The translations under genes and the position numbers were made by a program. Positions 49,116-55,364 of a DNA stretch of 64,000 bases are shown piece after piece; the first letter of the stretch is position 1; each line of letters opens with the position of its first letter. The stretch comes from Escherichia virus TH47. The stretch lies in the sequence record MT446416.1; one strand, 5' to 3'. The notes below the pieces were generated by a model. That model was not told where the DNA came from. It saw only the letters and a list, made by a program, of their open reading frames with translations, and did not search any database.

Positions 49116-49425
49116 TAGGCTCCTGTTTAGATTCTTTCATTAGTACTATCATCTTATGTACTAATGGCATAGGAAACTCTAAATCCCATACTAATGATTC
49201 CTGGAAGTATTCCTCTGGTGATAAAGTACTTAAATCTTTAATATCAACGTGCTTGTATATTTTATTTTCGTAATTAACAAATGATATATATAAATCACTA
49301 ACATAAGAATCATAGGTAATTGTGAATGGCTTACCCTTGTAATCCATTACATCTCTACATAGACTACTTTTGATATATGTATGTTCAAATGATTTATATA
49401 CCTTGAGTTTTATATTAGTTTTCAT
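49081..49425 (-). CDS. family-A paralog
   Basis: Motif PEEYFQESLV. Confidence 0.65.
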   Translation of the reverse strand: MKTNIKLKVYKSFEHTYIKSSLCRDVMDYKGKPFTITYDSYVSDLYISFVNYENKIYKHVDIKDLSTLSPEEYFQESLVWDLEFPMPLVHKMIVLMKESKQEPNGDYEEHTVEY

Positions 49426-49690
49426 ATTTCTCTTTATTAGCTTGTTTGGTTTTATAGTGAATGAAATCTATTAATGTAATCAAGTACAACGTCAAATAGT
49501 ACTCTTGTTGATCTGTACCTAATGATACAAAGAACTTGTGCTCATAGATTAAAACCTGTTTCTCTTCAAATGGACATTTAATCCTCTGTATAGGCTTAAG
49601 TAAATGATAGTACTTATTAAATCTATGATACATTTCTAGTTCTGTCAGTACTTTCATATTAAACACATACTCCATTAGCAGTAGCATCAC
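49415..49690 (-). CDS. family-C paralog
   Basis: Motif LGTDQQEY. Confidence 0.6.
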   Translation of the reverse strand: MMLLLMEYVFNMKVLTELEMYHRFNKYYHLLKPIQRIKCPFEEKQVLIYEHKFFVSLGTDQQEYYLTLYLITLIDFIHYKTKQANKEKYEN

Positions 49691-49880
49691 GTAAAGCTGT
49701 CAAATACTTCTGTACGGCTTGCTCTTGCTTATTTGTACCTAAAAGTATATACATCCATAATTCACTGTAATGTACATCTTGTGTATAAGGGTTGTTGTAA
49801 CTTTTTGATACTATAACATCAAATTCAGATGCATGAACCCTTGTGAACTTAAGAATATCTTTTTGTGTTATGATTCTCAT
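49659..49880 (-). CDS. family-C paralog
   Basis: Motif LGTNKQEQ. Confidence 0.65.
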   Translation of the reverse strand: MRIITQKDILKFTRVHASEFDVIVSKSYNNPYTQDVHYSELWMYILLGTNKQEQAVQKYLTALRDATANGVCV

Positions 49881-50092
49881 ATCTTTTCCTGTATAAGCTT
49901 CTTAAGAATCTCAATATGTGAATTAACAGTTCTTTATTGATGTTGTGTTCCTAAGAGTGTCAGTACTATCATCTCTGAACGCAAAAGATTTTTTTCAAGT
50001 TCACTGATATCAGTTCTTGTATCAAGTACTAAAAATTCTTGACTATTTTTTCTGAATAATGCCAAGTACTCTTGGTTTGATATTACCTTCAT
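49877..50092 (-). pseudogene. family-C copy interrupted by an in-frame TAA
   Basis: ATG at 50090-50092 (ATGA overlap with upstream stop) reads MKVISNQEYLALFRKNSQEFLVLDTRTDISELEKNLLRSEMIVLTLLGTQHQ then TAA at 49934-49936, then in frame RTVNSHIEILKKLIQEKI to TGA at 49877; neighbour has QERFVNEHIRALL at the same place. Confidence 0.55.
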
Positions 50093-50319
50093 AGTTTATC
50101 CCTGATGCCATTTAAAAGTGCTCTAATATGCTCATTGACAAAACGCTCTTGGGAATCTGTGTCTAGGGTGAGAAGCATTCTTAAATCTGAACTTTTGATA
50201 TGATATTCTAAATCATTATTTGATTCTTGCATCAGTTTCTGAAAGGATGAGAAGTTTGCTGCCATTAGTTCAATGTATTCTGCTGTTCCTAGGGGTTTGT
50301 GTATGTGCTGTCTGTGCAT
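50089..50319 (-). CDS. family-C paralog
   Basis: Motif LDTDSQER. Confidence 0.6.
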   Translation of the reverse strand: MHRQHIHKPLGTAEYIELMAANFSSFQKLMQESNNDLEYHIKSSDLRMLLTLDTDSQERFVNEHIRALLNGIRDKL

Positions 50320-50531
50320 TTTAATTGTATTACCCTTTTGAGTGTATTAATGTAATTATACACATTGGCTTCTTGATAGTTAGTTCCTAGAGTAGCTTGA
50401 ACGTAGATTTCATTTAACTTAATAATTTTATCCGTATCTGGTAGTTTTGATGTGTTAATGGCAAATAACTTCAAAAACAGTCCATTTATGATTGTTCTGT
50501 ATTCTTCTCCGGTAATGATTCGCATTTGCAT
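50289..50531 (-). CDS. family-C paralog
   Basis: Motif LGTNYQEA. Confidence 0.65.
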   Translation of the reverse strand: MQMRIITGEEYRTIINGLFLKLFAINTSKLPDTDKIIKLNEIYVQATLGTNYQEANVYNYINTLKRVIQLKCTDSTYTNP

Positions 50532-50737
50532 GTTCTCAGTACTGATTCTTTAAGTTCATTGATGTAGCACTCTACATATTCTTCTTGTAGGTTTGTTCCG
50601 ATATGTAACAGTACTCTTAAATCTGCTCTCAGTACTTCTTTGTCATCTTCATCTATATCAGACAGTGTTATGTTTAAGAATTTACTTGAACTCTCTATAA
50701 GTAATATTACTGAATCACCTTTGCTTAAAATTTTCAT
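50486..50737 (-). CDS. family-C paralog
   Basis: Motif IGTNLQEE. Confidence 0.65.
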   Translation of the reverse strand: MKILSKGDSVILLIESSSKFLNITLSDIDEDDKEVLRADLRVLLHIGTNLQEEYVECYINELKESVLRTCKCESLPEKNTEQS

Positions 50738-50945
50738 AATCTCTTTTTGCTTTCCTCGCCAAAAGGTACATATACGATTCTTCGTATTGTGCTTGGTAGT
50801 TTGTGTTTAAGAGTCGAAACAACTTCTGTTCTGCTAGAACGAGTTGCTTATCTTCATAACAACGATAGCGTATCAACTTTTTGTATTCGATGTTGATTAC
50901 ATCCATTACTATAAGCCTATGTTCATCATCAGTCAAGTGTTTCAT
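50715..50945 (-). CDS. family-C paralog
   Basis: Motif LNTNYQAQ. Confidence 0.6.
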   Translation of the reverse strand: MKHLTDDEHRLIVMDVINIEYKKLIRYRCYEDKQLVLAEQKLFRLLNTNYQAQYEESYMYLLARKAKRDYENFKQR

Positions 50946-53691: not shown

Positions 53692-53905
53692 CTAGTTTAT
53701 CCTGTATAACATTCGTTAATTGATCGATATATTCTGTGCAAAACTTATCTTGATATTGAGTCCCCATAAAGTACAGCAACCATAGCTCATCAACTTTAGC
53801 TCGCATTTGGTTCCATGTAAGGGTGGGGTCATCGTAGACTATCCTTGCGACTGGGGTTAGTTTACGAACTATAGTTTCATATTCATCTTGTGTTAAGCGT
53901 CTCAT
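53648..53905 (-). CDS. family-C paralog
   Basis: Motif MGTQYQDK. Confidence 0.65.
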   Translation of the reverse strand: MRRLTQDEYETIVRKLTPVARIVYDDPTLTWNQMRAKVDELWLLYFMGTQYQDKFCTEYIDQLTNVIQDKLDEYIHAKYEDFIRS

Positions 53906-54126
53906 TTACCTAAATCCCTGACATGACATTTTAAGGCCGTGATGTGGTTGTCTACCATAACCTCCTGATAGTTTGTCCCTACAAATGGTATTAATGTTGA
54001 GTCTGTTAGTATAACATACTTTTCATTGGATGTTAGTGATTCATCATCGTAAACTTGAAGTCTAAAGTTCTTCCCTTGTTCTAATCGTTTAAGATATTCT
54101 TGAGTGTTTATGTCTTTCATTTGCAT
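53902..54126 (-). CDS. family-C paralog
   Basis: Motif VGTNYQEV. Confidence 0.65.
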   Translation of the reverse strand: MQMKDINTQEYLKRLEQGKNFRLQVYDDESLTSNEKYVILTDSTLIPFVGTNYQEVMVDNHITALKCHVRDLGK

Positions 54127-54335
54127 TTGTCCATAATGTATTTCTTGAGTGCAACTATGTGCTCATGGACATAACTTTCCTGATAGTTTGTCCCCAGTAC
54201 AGCCATCATGCGTACATCGGTGGTGTTTATCTTGTGTTCAAATCGTGTTAAGCCTTTTTTTTGTAAAAGGGTATCGTATTTGTTTAATGCATCAATGATA
54301 ATTCTCATCTTCTCTATATTACTTAAATGTTTCAT
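54117..54335 (-). CDS. family-C paralog
   Basis: Motif LGTNYQES. Confidence 0.65.
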   Translation of the reverse strand: MKHLSNIEKMRIIIDALNKYDTLLQKKGLTRFEHKINTTDVRMMAVLGTNYQESYVHEHIVALKKYIMDKCK

Positions 54336-54547
54336 ATTTTGTTTCTATGGTGCTCCATGAGTGTTTCTGTGTAGTTCTTCATGAATTTATCTTGAAACTG
54401 TGTCCCGATGAATTGTAAGACCCATAGTGCATATATTCGTTCTTCCTTGTCCACCAAAGATAAATGTATATTATTATAAATCCTTTGTTCTTTATCTAGG
54501 GTAGACAGTACACGAGCCTCGTATTCACCTTGTGTTATTTTAATCAT
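54332..54547 (-). CDS. family-C paralog
   Basis: Motif IGTQFQDK. Confidence 0.65.
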   Translation of the reverse strand: MIKITQGEYEARVLSTLDKEQRIYNNIHLSLVDKEERIYALWVLQFIGTQFQDKFMKNYTETLMEHHRNKI

Positions 54548-54759
54548 AGTTTGCTCTTAATGTATTTCTTGAGTGCATTTATATACACATTCAAGAAATG
54601 CTCCTGATAGTCTGTTCCCAAGAATGCACCCAATAGTATATCATTTTCCAATACCTCGGCTAAGTTTAAATCAGAAGTCTCTTCATATACTATGAGGATT
54701 TCAAGTTGTCTGGCAGCAACGCGTTCGGTATATTGATGTGAGTTTGTAATGATATTCAT
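54544..54759 (-). CDS. family-C paralog
   Basis: Motif LGTDYQEH. Confidence 0.65.
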   Translation of the reverse strand: MNIITNSHQYTERVAARQLEILIVYEETSDLNLAEVLENDILLGAFLGTDYQEHFLNVYINALKKYIKSKL

Positions 54760-54967
54760 AGTTTACTCTTAATGTGGTTCTTGAGTGCAAATAAGTATTC
54801 CCCTACATAATACTCCTGAAAGTCTGTATCCAAAAATGCACCCATGAGTAAATCCTTCTCCATTGCCCTTGATAAGTTAAGGTCTACGCTTGAAAGGTAT
54901 ATCAGTAAGATTTCAGCCTGTGCCGAATTGAAACGTATCTTATATTCTTCTGGTGTTAAAAAATCAT
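54756..54967 (-). pseudogene. family-C copy with frameshift in a T6 homopolymer
   Basis: ATG at 54965-54967 reads ATG ATT TTT TAA; shifting one base gives an open family-C frame ...DFLTPEEYKIRF...AFLDTDFQEYYVGEYLFALKNHIKSKL to TGA at 54756; a seventh T would restore MIFLTPEEY. Confidence 0.55.
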
Positions 54968-55170
54968 AGTTTACTCTTTATATCTTTTATTAAATGTAAA
55001 ATCCAATCATTAACAAAACTTTCTTGGAAGTTGGTTCCCAGTCCAGCCATCATCCACCACTCCGATAGAATAAACTTTTTTTCATCCCTAGATAACTCAT
55101 CTGGTATATATATATTCTTTCTATATTCGATCATAAGATTATATAGTTGAAATTGTGTGATAATTTTCAT
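54964..55170 (-). CDS. family-C paralog
   Basis: Motif LGTNFQES. Confidence 0.65.
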   Translation of the reverse strand: MKIITQFQLYNLMIEYRKNIYIPDELSRDEKKFILSEWWMMAGLGTNFQESFVNDWILHLIKDIKSKL

Positions 55171-55364
55171 AGTTTACCCGTTATATCTTCAATTAAATAT
55201 GAAATCCAATCCTTGACATACCTTTCCTGAAAGTTAGTTCCAATGAATAGTGCCATAACCAATTCACGCTTATAGGCCATACCACGTTCATGTGACTTAT
55301 ACATTATCATAGCCATGTTATTGATAAGTCTTTCGTGATGTTCTGCTTGAGTTAAAATACGCAT
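55167..55364 (-). CDS. family-C paralog (first gene of array)
   Basis: Motif IGTNFQER; GGAG SD upstream. Confidence 0.65.
   Translation of the reverse strand: MRILTQAEHHERLINNMAMIMYKSHERGMAYKRELVMALFIGTNFQERYVKDWISYLIEDITGKL

What the first reader, a model, noticed from the sequence alone, without database searches (positions are those of the whole stretch)
49415..55364. About 31 tandem paralogs of 65-90 aa with an L-G-T-N-Y-Q-E core (family C)
Twenty-nine intact and two defective copies sit head-to-tail on the minus strand, 27 of the intact ones in one array with start/stop overlaps; four more are embedded in the family-A array (35033, 35202, 47330, 47575). All share [LIV]-G-T-[NDQ]-[YFK]-Q-[EDQ] followed by an amphipathic stretch ending ...L..E[IV]K.K. 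I do not recognise the family. It is a second, independent amplified repertoire beside family A.
Basis: seen in the sequence. Interest (0 to 1): 0.8.

Follow-up and report, generated by a model that had tools for sequence, protein, structure and literature searches.

The report
Early operon of 27 helical paralogs
A giant E. coli phage carries one operon of 27 old, diverged copies (31 in the window) of an uncharacterised 70-residue four-helix protein, next to the genome's terminal repeat; the genes are real and under selection, and probably encode host-manipulating binder proteins made early in infection, though no function has been tested.

Summary
A profile built from the copies finds 31 members, all on the minus strand: 27 head-to-tail at 49415-55364 (25 intact, one frameshifted, one with a nonsense codon) and 4 outliers. 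The window is an Asteriusvirus jumbo coliphage (PBECO4/121Q group).

The family has no Pfam, PDB or defence-library match. It equals phrog_4148 (function unknown). AlphaFold gives a very confident (pLDDT 97) four-helix bundle with no informative structural neighbour.

The genes are translated. dN/dS is about 0.4 in eight genome comparisons. Core and motif sites are constrained and surface sites evolve almost freely. The L-G-T-N-Y-Q-E motif is read as a structural helix cap, not an active site.

The array is ancient, not a recent amplification. Closest paralogs are 30-47% identical, positional orthologs usually 75-99%. Copy number is 23-30 in nine genomes. Multi-copy sets also occur in a RaK2-like Klebsiella phage (K64-1) and two metagenomic contigs.

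It looks like one operon with translationally coupled genes. It sits behind a conserved sigma70-type promoter, 40 nt inside the unique region from the terminal-repeat boundary.

Best reading (about 0.45): a co-expressed early set of diversified binders for host takeover or counter-defence. Function is untested. One paper mentions an array of this kind in 121Q in a single sentence.

The parts
55395..55422 (-). sigma70-type promoter of the array: TTGACT (55422-55417), 16-nt spacer, TATTAT (55400-55395)
   Evidence: It is conserved in 8 of 9 Asteriusvirus genomes. PBECO4 has an insertion here that brings its own TTGACA-N17-TATGAT. It lies 40 nt inside the unique region from the terminal-repeat boundary mapped from G17 (window ~55462).
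55370..55373 (-). GGAG Shine-Dalgarno sequence, 5 nt before the ATG of the first gene; the only well-placed strong SD at the head of the array
55167..55364 (-). family C copy 1 (65 aa), first cistron
   Evidence: HMM 68 bits; ortholog in all 9 genomes
54964..55170 (-). copy 2 (68 aa); this allele is unique to the window (42-61% identity to the same slot elsewhere)
54756..54967 (-). copy 3, defective: T7->T6 frameshift immediately after the ATG
54544..54759 (-). copy 4 (71 aa)
54332..54547 (-). copy 5 (71 aa); no close ortholog in the 8 relatives (30-39% identity)
54117..54335 (-). copy 6 (72 aa)
53902..54126 (-). copy 7 (72-74 aa; probable start 54120); ortholog only in WPEC5 (100% identity)
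53648..53905 (-). copy 8 (85 aa)
53419..53691 (-). copy 9 (83-90 aa; probable start 53670)
53183..53434 (-). copy 10 (83 aa), the most divergent copy in the array (motif T-G-T-D-K-K)
52984..53199 (-). copy 11 (71 aa)
52769..52987 (-). copy 12 (72 aa)
52560..52778 (-). copy 13 (70-72 aa); the member whose structure was predicted
52318..52563 (-). copy 14 (79-81 aa)
52068..52346 (-). copy 15 (probable start 52325, 85 aa)
51856..52083 (-). copy 16 (probable start 52071, 71 aa)
51619..51855 (-). copy 17 (74-78 aa), part of the youngest sub-block (50-65% identity among copies 17-19)
51399..51629 (-). copy 18 (72-76 aa); its 60%-identity group is present in only 5 of 9 genomes
51152..51409 (-). copy 19 (81-85 aa)
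50929..51183 (-). copy 20 (84 aa)
50715..50945 (-). copy 21 (76 aa; motif L-N-T-N-Y-Q-A)
50486..50737 (-). copy 22 (83 aa)
50289..50531 (-). copy 23 (78-80 aa)
50089..50319 (-). copy 24 (76 aa; motif L-D-T-D-S-Q-E)
49934..50092 (-). copy 25, defective: GAA->TAA nonsense after L-G-T-Q-H-Q, truncated to 52 aa and lacking helix 4
49659..49880 (-). copy 26 (73 aa)
49415..49690 (-). copy 27, last of the array (probable start 49657, 80 aa)
47575..47787 (-). outlier copy (70 aa ORF), embedded among family A genes
   Evidence: HMM E=8e-6; phrog_4148/28039
47330..47623 (-). outlier copy (97 aa ORF)
   Evidence: HMM E=1.4e-6
35202..35420 (-). outlier copy (72 aa ORF)
   Evidence: HMM E=8e-6; 100% identical ortholog in phage UB
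35033..35224 (-). outlier copy (63 aa)
   Evidence: HMM E=2.5e-12

Best explanation
The array is read as one early operon of an Asteriusvirus jumbo phage. Host RNA polymerase would start at a conserved sigma70-type promoter just inside the unique region, next to the terminal repeat. Ribosomes would load at the single strong Shine-Dalgarno site before gene 1. They would then pass from cistron to cistron by termination-reinitiation at overlapping stop/start codons. This would make all 25 intact paralogs together within minutes of infection.

Each product is a soluble ~70-residue four-helix bundle. The conserved residues (hydrophobic core, L-T-x-x-E and G-T-N-x-Q helix caps, N-terminal beta-bridge) build the scaffold. 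The exposed residues and net charge differ from copy to copy.

I infer that each copy binds a different partner. The partners would most likely be host proteins or strain-variable host defence or toxin modules. The array would then act as a set of host-takeover or counter-defence factors whose breadth supports infection of diverse E. coli strains.

Shown: the genes are real, selected, old, arranged in one apparent operon headed by a conserved host-type promoter, scaffold-conserved and surface-variable, variable in content between strains, and absent from the phAPEC6 virion proteome.

Inferred: early timing, co-translation, binding function and the identity of the targets.
For: - Coding and selected: pooled dN/dS is 0.39-0.43 against each of 8 genomes, the same as flanking genes (0.39).
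- Scaffold versus surface: core and motif sites have pN/pS of 0-0.3, while many exposed sites sit at 0.9-1.4. pI ranges from 4.6 to 9.8 and net charge from -6 to +8. The fold is confident (pLDDT 97) and is shared by paralogs in BFVD (TM up to 0.9).
- Maintained diversity: closest paralogs are 30-47% identical, against 75-99% for positional orthologs. The family is multi-copy in every lineage that has it: K64-1 has at least 13, L011 has 17, L013 has 13.
- Accessory, modular behaviour: copy number is 23-30. There are 40 ortholog groups in 9 genomes, of which only 19 are universal. The window has two unique alleles and two fresh pseudogenes. Variability is polarised, at 65%, 81% and 91% identity for the proximal, middle and distal thirds (rho=0.66, p=1.6e-4).
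- Early expression: the promoter and SD are conserved. Strong sigma70-like sites (at least 11/12 matches) number 27 on the coding strand, 1 on the other strand, and 3.0+/-1.8 expected. The array abuts the terminal-repeat boundary. In the related phage PA5oct, terminal-repeat genes are early and transcription depends on host RNAP. A similar inference was made for phage CBB.
- Not structural: no family C member (gp467c-gp489c) appears in the phAPEC6 virion proteome.
Against: - There is no direct expression or interaction data for any member.
- There is no similarity to any known anti-defence or host-takeover protein.
- The selection signal is relaxed purifying selection, equal to that of neighbouring genes. 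It is not demonstrable positive selection. The high surface pN/pS values are pooled over non-independent comparisons and are compatible with near-neutral surfaces.
- A four-helix bundle is a generic fold.
- Equimolar co-translation of 25 proteins would also suit an assembly.
- The head promoter matches only 10 of 12 consensus positions.
Confidence: 0.45

Rival explanations
1. Genome filler. The copies are the residue of tandem duplication that expanded the genome to fit a larger capsid (the ratchet proposed by Hua et al. 2017). They have little or no function of their own.
For: [quoted passage not shown] Copy number varies between 23 and 30. Two copies are freshly inactivated in this genome. 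No function is known.
Against: The copies are not 'very similar': mean column identity is 25%. They are old and positionally orthologous. They are under purifying selection, with a structured core/surface pattern. They are kept as multi-copy sets in different genera. Neutral filler would have decayed into pseudogenes over that divergence. It is also uncertain whether Hua's sentence refers to family C or family A, because the family A profile hits 32 ORFs in the window.
Confidence: 0.12
2. Hetero-oligomeric assembly. The paralogs are subunits of one multi-protein structure made early, for example a coat, scaffold or filament inside the infected cell. Translational coupling would provide fixed stoichiometry.
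For: There is one operon, stop/start overlaps and a single strong SD. The scaffold is conserved. About 19-24 ortholog groups are near-universal.
Against: Presence/absence and allele replacement of individual subunits between close strains, and the pseudogenes, are hard to reconcile with a fixed assembly. In K64-1 the copies are scattered in groups of 1-3 rather than in one operon. Charge varies widely. An AlphaFold model of a natural two-copy fusion gave no confident inter-domain packing (pTM 0.52). That test was weak, because the second half had almost no alignment depth.
Confidence: 0.15
3. Nucleic-acid-binding regulators. This would be an expanded set of small DNA- or RNA-binding proteins that tune expression of the 350-kb genome, as proposed for the ~35 zinc-ribbon copies of Bacillus phage G.
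For: Median pI is 8.5 and many copies are basic. There is a precedent for an expanded putative transcription-factor family in phage G. The array lies in an early position.
Confidence: 0.13

Closest known systems
phrog_4148 (PHROGs v4, function unknown), with phrog_28039
   Same: 28 of 29 window members match phrog_4148 end to end (best E 2e-25), and 9 also match phrog_28039. This is the same protein family, already clustered from phage genomes.
   Different: The PHROG carries no function, structure or context. Nothing about array organisation, selection or distribution is recorded there.
[quoted passage not shown] 2017, mBio (PMC5646251)
   Same: Same phage genus and the same kind of object. 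121Q has 23 family C copies in its main array plus 2 nearby.
   Different: It is a one-sentence remark used as evidence for genome expansion. The copies here are not 'very similar' (25% mean identity), and they are ancient and selected. The remark may instead refer to family A, whose profile hits 32 ORFs in the window. Phage G's expanded family is a zinc ribbon and is unrelated to this fold.
Host-takeover gene clusters in or next to phage terminal repeats (SPO1 host-takeover module; early terminal-repeat genes of PA5oct)
   Same: Dense clusters of small early genes of unknown function behind host-type promoters at the terminal redundancy. PA5oct terminal-repeat genes are early and depend on host RNAP. 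The SPO1 comparison rests on my own knowledge (Stewart et al. 1998).
   Different: Those clusters consist of unrelated genes with their own promoters. Here 27 paralogs of one fold sit in a single translationally coupled operon just outside the repeat.
Multigene families of large eukaryotic DNA viruses (African swine fever virus MGF110/360/505; poxvirus terminal gene families)
   Same: Tandem arrays of old, diverged paralogs close to the genome ends. Gene content differs between isolates, with a conserved core and variable members, and the families are linked to host range and immune evasion (my own knowledge, not tested here). The near-terminal position, copy-number variation and polarised variability are seen here.
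   Different: A different virus realm, with larger unrelated proteins and one promoter per gene. A role of family C in host range is only an inference.

Membership tests
phrog_4148 (uncharacterised phage protein family) | Significant full-length match to the family HMM | tested here: met
   28 of 29 members match; best E=2e-25, covering profile positions 1-70 of 74
Hha/YmoA/TomB (PF05321) small helical nucleoid-associated modulators | Sequence or profile similarity to Hha, and the Hha fold | tested here: not met
Colicin/pyocin immunity proteins (Im7/Im9-type ~85-aa four-helix proteins) | Pfam Colicin_Pyocin match or structural match to Im7/Im9 | tested here: not met
Known anti-CRISPR and other structurally solved anti-defence proteins | Sequence or fold match to a solved anti-defence protein | tested here: not met
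   The only such entry is AcrIIC4 at Foldseek rank 21, with E=6.3 and TM 0.28, which is noise. No BFVD match outside the family itself. No dedicated anti-defence library was available.
Helix-turn-helix or zinc-ribbon DNA-binding regulators | HTH or zinc-ribbon signature or fold | tested here: not met
   No Pfam match. No conserved Cys/His pattern, with 0-3 Cys per copy at non-aligned positions. Structural neighbours are generic helical repeats.
Early host-takeover / counter-defence gene battery (functional class) | Transcribed early by host RNA polymerase | tested here: inconclusive
   A conserved sigma70-type promoter with an SD sits at the head of the array. There is a 9-fold excess of strong sigma70-like sites on the coding strand. 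The array is adjacent to the terminal repeat. The relative PA5oct has early terminal-repeat genes. No transcript data exist for this genus.
Early host-takeover / counter-defence gene battery (functional class) | Products bind host or defence proteins and alter host range or host physiology | not testable with these tools
   Requires deletion, expression and interaction experiments.
Early host-takeover / counter-defence gene battery (functional class) | Non-structural, accessory and variable between related strains | tested here: met
   Absent from the phAPEC6 virion proteome. Only 19 of 40 ortholog groups are universal. Unique alleles and pseudogenes are present.
Recent 'genomic accordion' amplification | Near-identical copies, a DNA-level tandem repeat, and copy number changing between close isolates | tested here: not met
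   Closest paralogs are 30-47% identical at the protein level, and 65% at most for one triplet. TRF finds no array-scale repeat. Positional orthology is preserved across genomes.

The most novel reading that the evidence does not exclude
The array would be a bacteriophage counterpart of the multigene families of large eukaryotic DNA viruses. It would be a germline-encoded, co-expressed repertoire of about 25-30 binders on one minimal four-helix scaffold, each neutralising a different strain-variable host immunity or toxin module. The promoter-proximal end next to the terminal repeat would act as the fast-exchanging edge of the repertoire. That would make family C a new anti-defence protein superfamily and a main determinant of host range, and perhaps of the persistent-infection lifestyle, of Asteriusvirus and RaK2-like jumbo phages.
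Probability: 0.2. Interest if true: 0.85.

Novelty: new variant of a known kind. Interest (0 to 1): 0.55.

Why it matters
Most genes of jumbo phages have no known function. Their large paralog arrays have so far been read only as evidence that genomes grew by duplication. This analysis shows that one such array is not recent filler. It is an old, selected operon headed by a host-type (early) promoter, encoding a very stable mini-scaffold with diversified surfaces. It is kept in multiple copies across at least two phage genera. If the copies do bind different host or defence targets, they would be a rich source of new inhibitors of bacterial immunity. They would also explain how these non-nucleus-forming giants cope with diverse E. 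coli strains, and they would offer a naturally diversified 70-residue binder scaffold. The array is compact (6 kb), so it can be deleted or expressed copy by copy. That makes the question directly testable.

Tried and rejected
- **Hha/YmoA resemblance.** The N-terminus recalled Hha. It was rejected by hhalign (2% probability), Pfam and structure searches.
- **Family libraries.** PADLOC gave only scattered single-member noise. Pfam and PHROG scans of the neighbouring genes and of the UB fusion protein P0156 gave only unknown-function families. The fused domain has no homolog in the window.
- **Searching viral contigs with the alignment.** This failed because no stretch is conserved enough to back-translate. 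The second word-indexed protein search added little.
- **Non-coding explanations.** There is no Rfam family, no DNA-level tandem repeat, and motif conservation is at the protein level.
- **Two-copy fusion model.** AlphaFold on the natural fusion P0001, used to probe packing between neighbours, was inconclusive. pTM was 0.52 and the second domain had low confidence because the alignment covered only the first half.
- **Recent-amplification ('accordion') reading.** Rejected on divergence and positional orthology.
- **Literature.** Searches found no expression, interaction or knockout data for any member.

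
Full report
**What the window is.** The 5.95-kb region matches 35 phage records at 85-91% nucleotide identity. All are jumbo coliphages or Salmonella phages of the PBECO4/121Q group (genus Asteriusvirus), and every gene under the match is annotated 'hypothetical protein'. All genes in the window run on the minus strand.

**Checking the observation.** The ORF listing shows an unbroken chain of 52-92 aa minus-strand ORFs from 55364 down to 49415.
- A profile HMM built from 26 clear copies was searched against all stop-to-stop segments of the six-frame translation. It finds 31 members (E from 3e-27 to 8e-6), all on the minus strand. The next best segment has E=1.
- Twenty-seven members are contiguous in 49415-55364.
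- The nearly invariant residues are G, T and Q of the L-G-T-N-Y-Q-E motif and a Leu in the last helix. Mean column identity among paralogs is only 25%.
- Motif conservation is at the protein level. Gly uses four codons, Thr four, Gln two and the preceding Leu six. Tandem Repeats Finder sees no repeat at the scale of the gene unit, and no Rfam family is present.
- The two defective copies are real. Copy 3 has lost one T from a T7 run directly after its ATG. Copy 25 has GAA->TAA at the Glu of the motif, with still-conserved sequence downstream.
- The array therefore holds 25 intact and 2 defective copies. The window total of 29 intact plus 2 defective is as reported.

**Are the ORFs genes?** I fetched the homologous region from eight other Asteriusvirus genomes: PBECO4, 121Q, WPEC5, JP4, slurp01, G17, phAPEC6 and UB.
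- All carry the array on one strand, with 23-30 copies in the main array.
- Reciprocal best hits show positional orthology. The closest paralog within the window is 30-47% identical (65% for one triplet, copies 17-19). The ortholog in the same slot of another genome is typically 75-99% identical.
- Nei-Gojobori dN/dS, pooled over orthologs, is 0.39-0.43 against each of the eight genomes. Twelve flanking non-C genes give 0.39.
- The reading frames are thus under purifying selection. The array is old and not a recent amplification.

**The protein.**
- There is no Pfam hit, no PDB sequence hit and no PADLOC hit beyond noise.
- PHROGs places 28 of 29 members in phrog_4148, which has unknown function.
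- AlphaFold2, with the 29 paralogs as its alignment, gives a very confident model (pLDDT 97, pTM 0.82). It has four helices (residues 8-17, 19-26, 33-47, 54-71) and a beta-bridge between residue 4 and residue 51 in the motif.
- A resemblance of the N-terminus to Hha was tested and rejected.
- A site-wise profile pooled over all ortholog pairs shows a scaffold pattern. Hydrophobic core positions have pN/pS of 0.0-0.3 (columns 4, 9, 13, 29, 41, 43, 46, 47, 55, 59, 63, 67, 71). So do the polar residues E8, G48, T49, N50, Q52 and K70. Many exposed positions lie at 0.9-1.4.
- The two conserved polar motifs, L-T-x-x-E at the start of helix 1 and G-T-N-x-Q at the start of helix 4, have the form of helix N-capping boxes. 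This is an inference from the classical S/T-x-x-E/Q capping-box rule. I therefore read the 'core motif' as structural, not catalytic.
- Net charge ranges from -6 to +8 and pI from 4.6 to 9.8. The proteins share a scaffold but not a common surface.

**Distribution.**
- An exhaustive profile search of 1.84 billion cluster representatives finds only 91 clusters with E<1e-3. The family is very narrow.
- It is not limited to Asteriusvirus. Distant members map to RaK2-like Klebsiella jumbo phages.
- A 49-kb stretch of K64-1 (Alcyoneusvirus) contains at least 13 copies, scattered in groups of 1-3.
- Two metagenomic contigs carry 17 copies (12 of them contiguous) and 13 copies.
- Every lineage that has the family has many copies. 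In each of these, blocks of longer genes (roughly 150-200 aa) follow the family C genes. I did not test whether those blocks belong to family A.
- One natural variant in phages UB and EC.P1 fuses a C domain to a ~190-residue domain that is otherwise found alone in RaK2-like phages.

**Organisation and expression signals.**
- With HMM-consistent ATG starts, 11 of 26 junctions are ATGA overlaps. Most others overlap by 8-40 nt or are 1-2 nt apart.
- Only the first gene has a strong, well-placed Shine-Dalgarno sequence (GGAG, 5 nt upstream). This is the anatomy of a translationally coupled polycistron.
- Upstream of gene 1 lies TTGACT-16 nt-TATTAT (55422-55395). It is conserved in 8 of 9 genomes. 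PBECO4 has an insertion there with its own TTGACA-N17-TATGAT.
- Across the window, sites matching the sigma70 consensus at 11 of 12 positions or better number 27 on the coding strand and 1 on the other strand. Markov simulations of the coding strand give 3.0+/-1.8. Eight perfect 12/12 sites lie between 59.7 and 64 kb. Seven of them sit in intergenic gaps 30-57 nt before start codons, and the eighth (63636) lies inside an ORF.
- The G17 record includes its ~20-kb terminal redundancy, which was inferred from read coverage. Its nucleotide 1 equals nucleotide 350,150, with 0 mismatches over the 4.9 kb compared. That boundary maps to window position ~55462.
- The window above 55462 therefore corresponds to the terminal repeat. 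The array is the first operon of the unique region, with its -35 box 40 nt inside the boundary, and it is transcribed inward.
- In the related phage PA5oct, RNA-seq shows that terminal-repeat genes are early and that the phage depends on host RNA polymerase. A similar inference was made for phage CBB.
- In the phAPEC6 virion proteome, no protein between gp347 and gp549 was detected, whereas the C genes are gp467c-gp489c.

**Variation between strains.**
- Clustering the 273 copies from nine genomes at 60% identity gives 40 ortholog groups. Nineteen are in all nine genomes, five are in eight, sixteen are in seven or fewer, and four are singletons.
- The window has two alleles with no close counterpart (copies 2 and 5) and one shared only with WPEC5 (copy 7).
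- Variability is polarised. Mean identity to the best hit in other genomes is 65% for copies 1-9, 81% for copies 10-18 and 91% for copies 19-27 (Spearman 0.66, p=1.6e-4).
- dS is also highest at the proximal end. This suggests exchange of old alleles by recombination near the repeat boundary rather than only local fast evolution.

**Interpretation.** The evidence supports a co-expressed early set of small proteins that share a rigid scaffold and differ on their surfaces. They are individually dispensable yet collectively maintained.
- I consider a battery of binders against host or host-defence targets the most likely function (about 0.45). Timing, co-translation, binding and targets are all inferred.
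- The filler hypothesis of Hua et al. (repeated) does not fit the age, selection and cross-genus retention of the copies. It also calls the genes 'very similar', which these are not. Their sentence may refer to family A, whose profile hits 32 ORFs here.
- A hetero-oligomeric assembly fits the coupling but not the strain-to-strain gain, loss and replacement of copies, nor the scattered layout in K64-1. A model of a natural two-copy fusion gave no confident inter-domain packing, but that test was weak.
- A nucleic-acid-binding role is not supported by fold or by charge.

**Novelty.** The family exists in PHROGs without function, and an array of this kind has been mentioned once in passing. New here are:
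- the confident fold without relatives;
- the reading of the motif as helix caps;
- the demonstration of selection, and of the scaffold-versus-surface split;
- the age and positional orthology of the copies;
- the core-plus-variable repertoire with a polarity gradient;
- the presence of multi-copy sets in a second genus and in uncultivated relatives;
- the placement of the operon at the terminal-repeat boundary behind a host-type promoter.

It is best classed as a new variant of a known kind of thing: a lineage-specific expanded family of small early phage proteins, comparable in logic to the multigene families of large eukaryotic DNA viruses.

Noticed in passing
window ~55462 (boundary); 55462-64000: The terminal-repeat boundary of G17 (nt 1 = nt 350,150; 20,668-bp repeat) maps to window ~55462. 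The part of the window above that corresponds to the direct terminal repeat. It is packed with small genes, and nearly every one has a near-perfect or perfect sigma70 consensus promoter 30-57 nt upstream (eight 12/12 sites between 59.7 and 64 kb, seven of them intergenic).
   Followed up: partly
window 8213-49425 (for example 48720-49115, 49081-49425, 39818-40312): A profile of the largest BLAST cluster of 'family A' hits 32 minus-strand ORFs of 100-230 aa. All match only unknown-function PHROGs (13866, 15629, 9317, 19795). C genes followed by blocks of longer (roughly 150-200 aa) genes recur in K64-1 (gp544-gp568), L011 and L013; whether those blocks are family A was not tested.
   Followed up: partly
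L008 20001-20810 (phage UB; also EC.P1): A 269-aa protein fuses an N-terminal family C domain to a ~190-aa domain that exists as a separate gene in RaK2, K64-1 and RCIP0023 (about 40% identity). That domain has no homolog in the window and no Pfam or PHROG annotation.
   Followed up: partly
L011 4172-4423; L013 1176-1391; L010 12613-12861 (K64-1 gp471): ParE-like or YafQ-like toxin genes sit a few kb upstream of the family C clusters in three RaK2-like lineages. K64-1 also annotates a protein kinase (gp473) there. No antitoxin partner was looked for.
   Followed up: no
window 55505-55535, minus strand: An 8-bp inverted repeat (AATCCCTT ... AAGGGATT, 15-nt loop, with a TTGACT inside the loop region) lies between the upstream 69-aa gene and the repeat boundary. 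It is conserved in 8 of 9 genomes and has no T-run after it. It could be a terminator-like or regulatory hairpin.
   Followed up: no
L001 10359-10810 (PBECO4): PBECO4 alone has an extra annotated gene (AGC34911.1) inserted between the repeat boundary region and the first family C gene. It replaces the common promoter region with a different sigma70-like promoter.
   Followed up: no
protein hits P0003, P0007, P0010, P0021 and others: Many family members are recorded as 'Escherichia coli' proteins on 344-366 kb contigs. This fits a preprint reporting Asteriusvirus genomes as frequent 'persistent virulent phages' inside E. coli isolate assemblies.
   Followed up: partly
window 48092-48442: This flanking gene is 91-95% identical in two relatives but only ~40% identical in six others (pooled dN/dS ~1.0). 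So allele replacement is not restricted to family C in this region.
   Followed up: no
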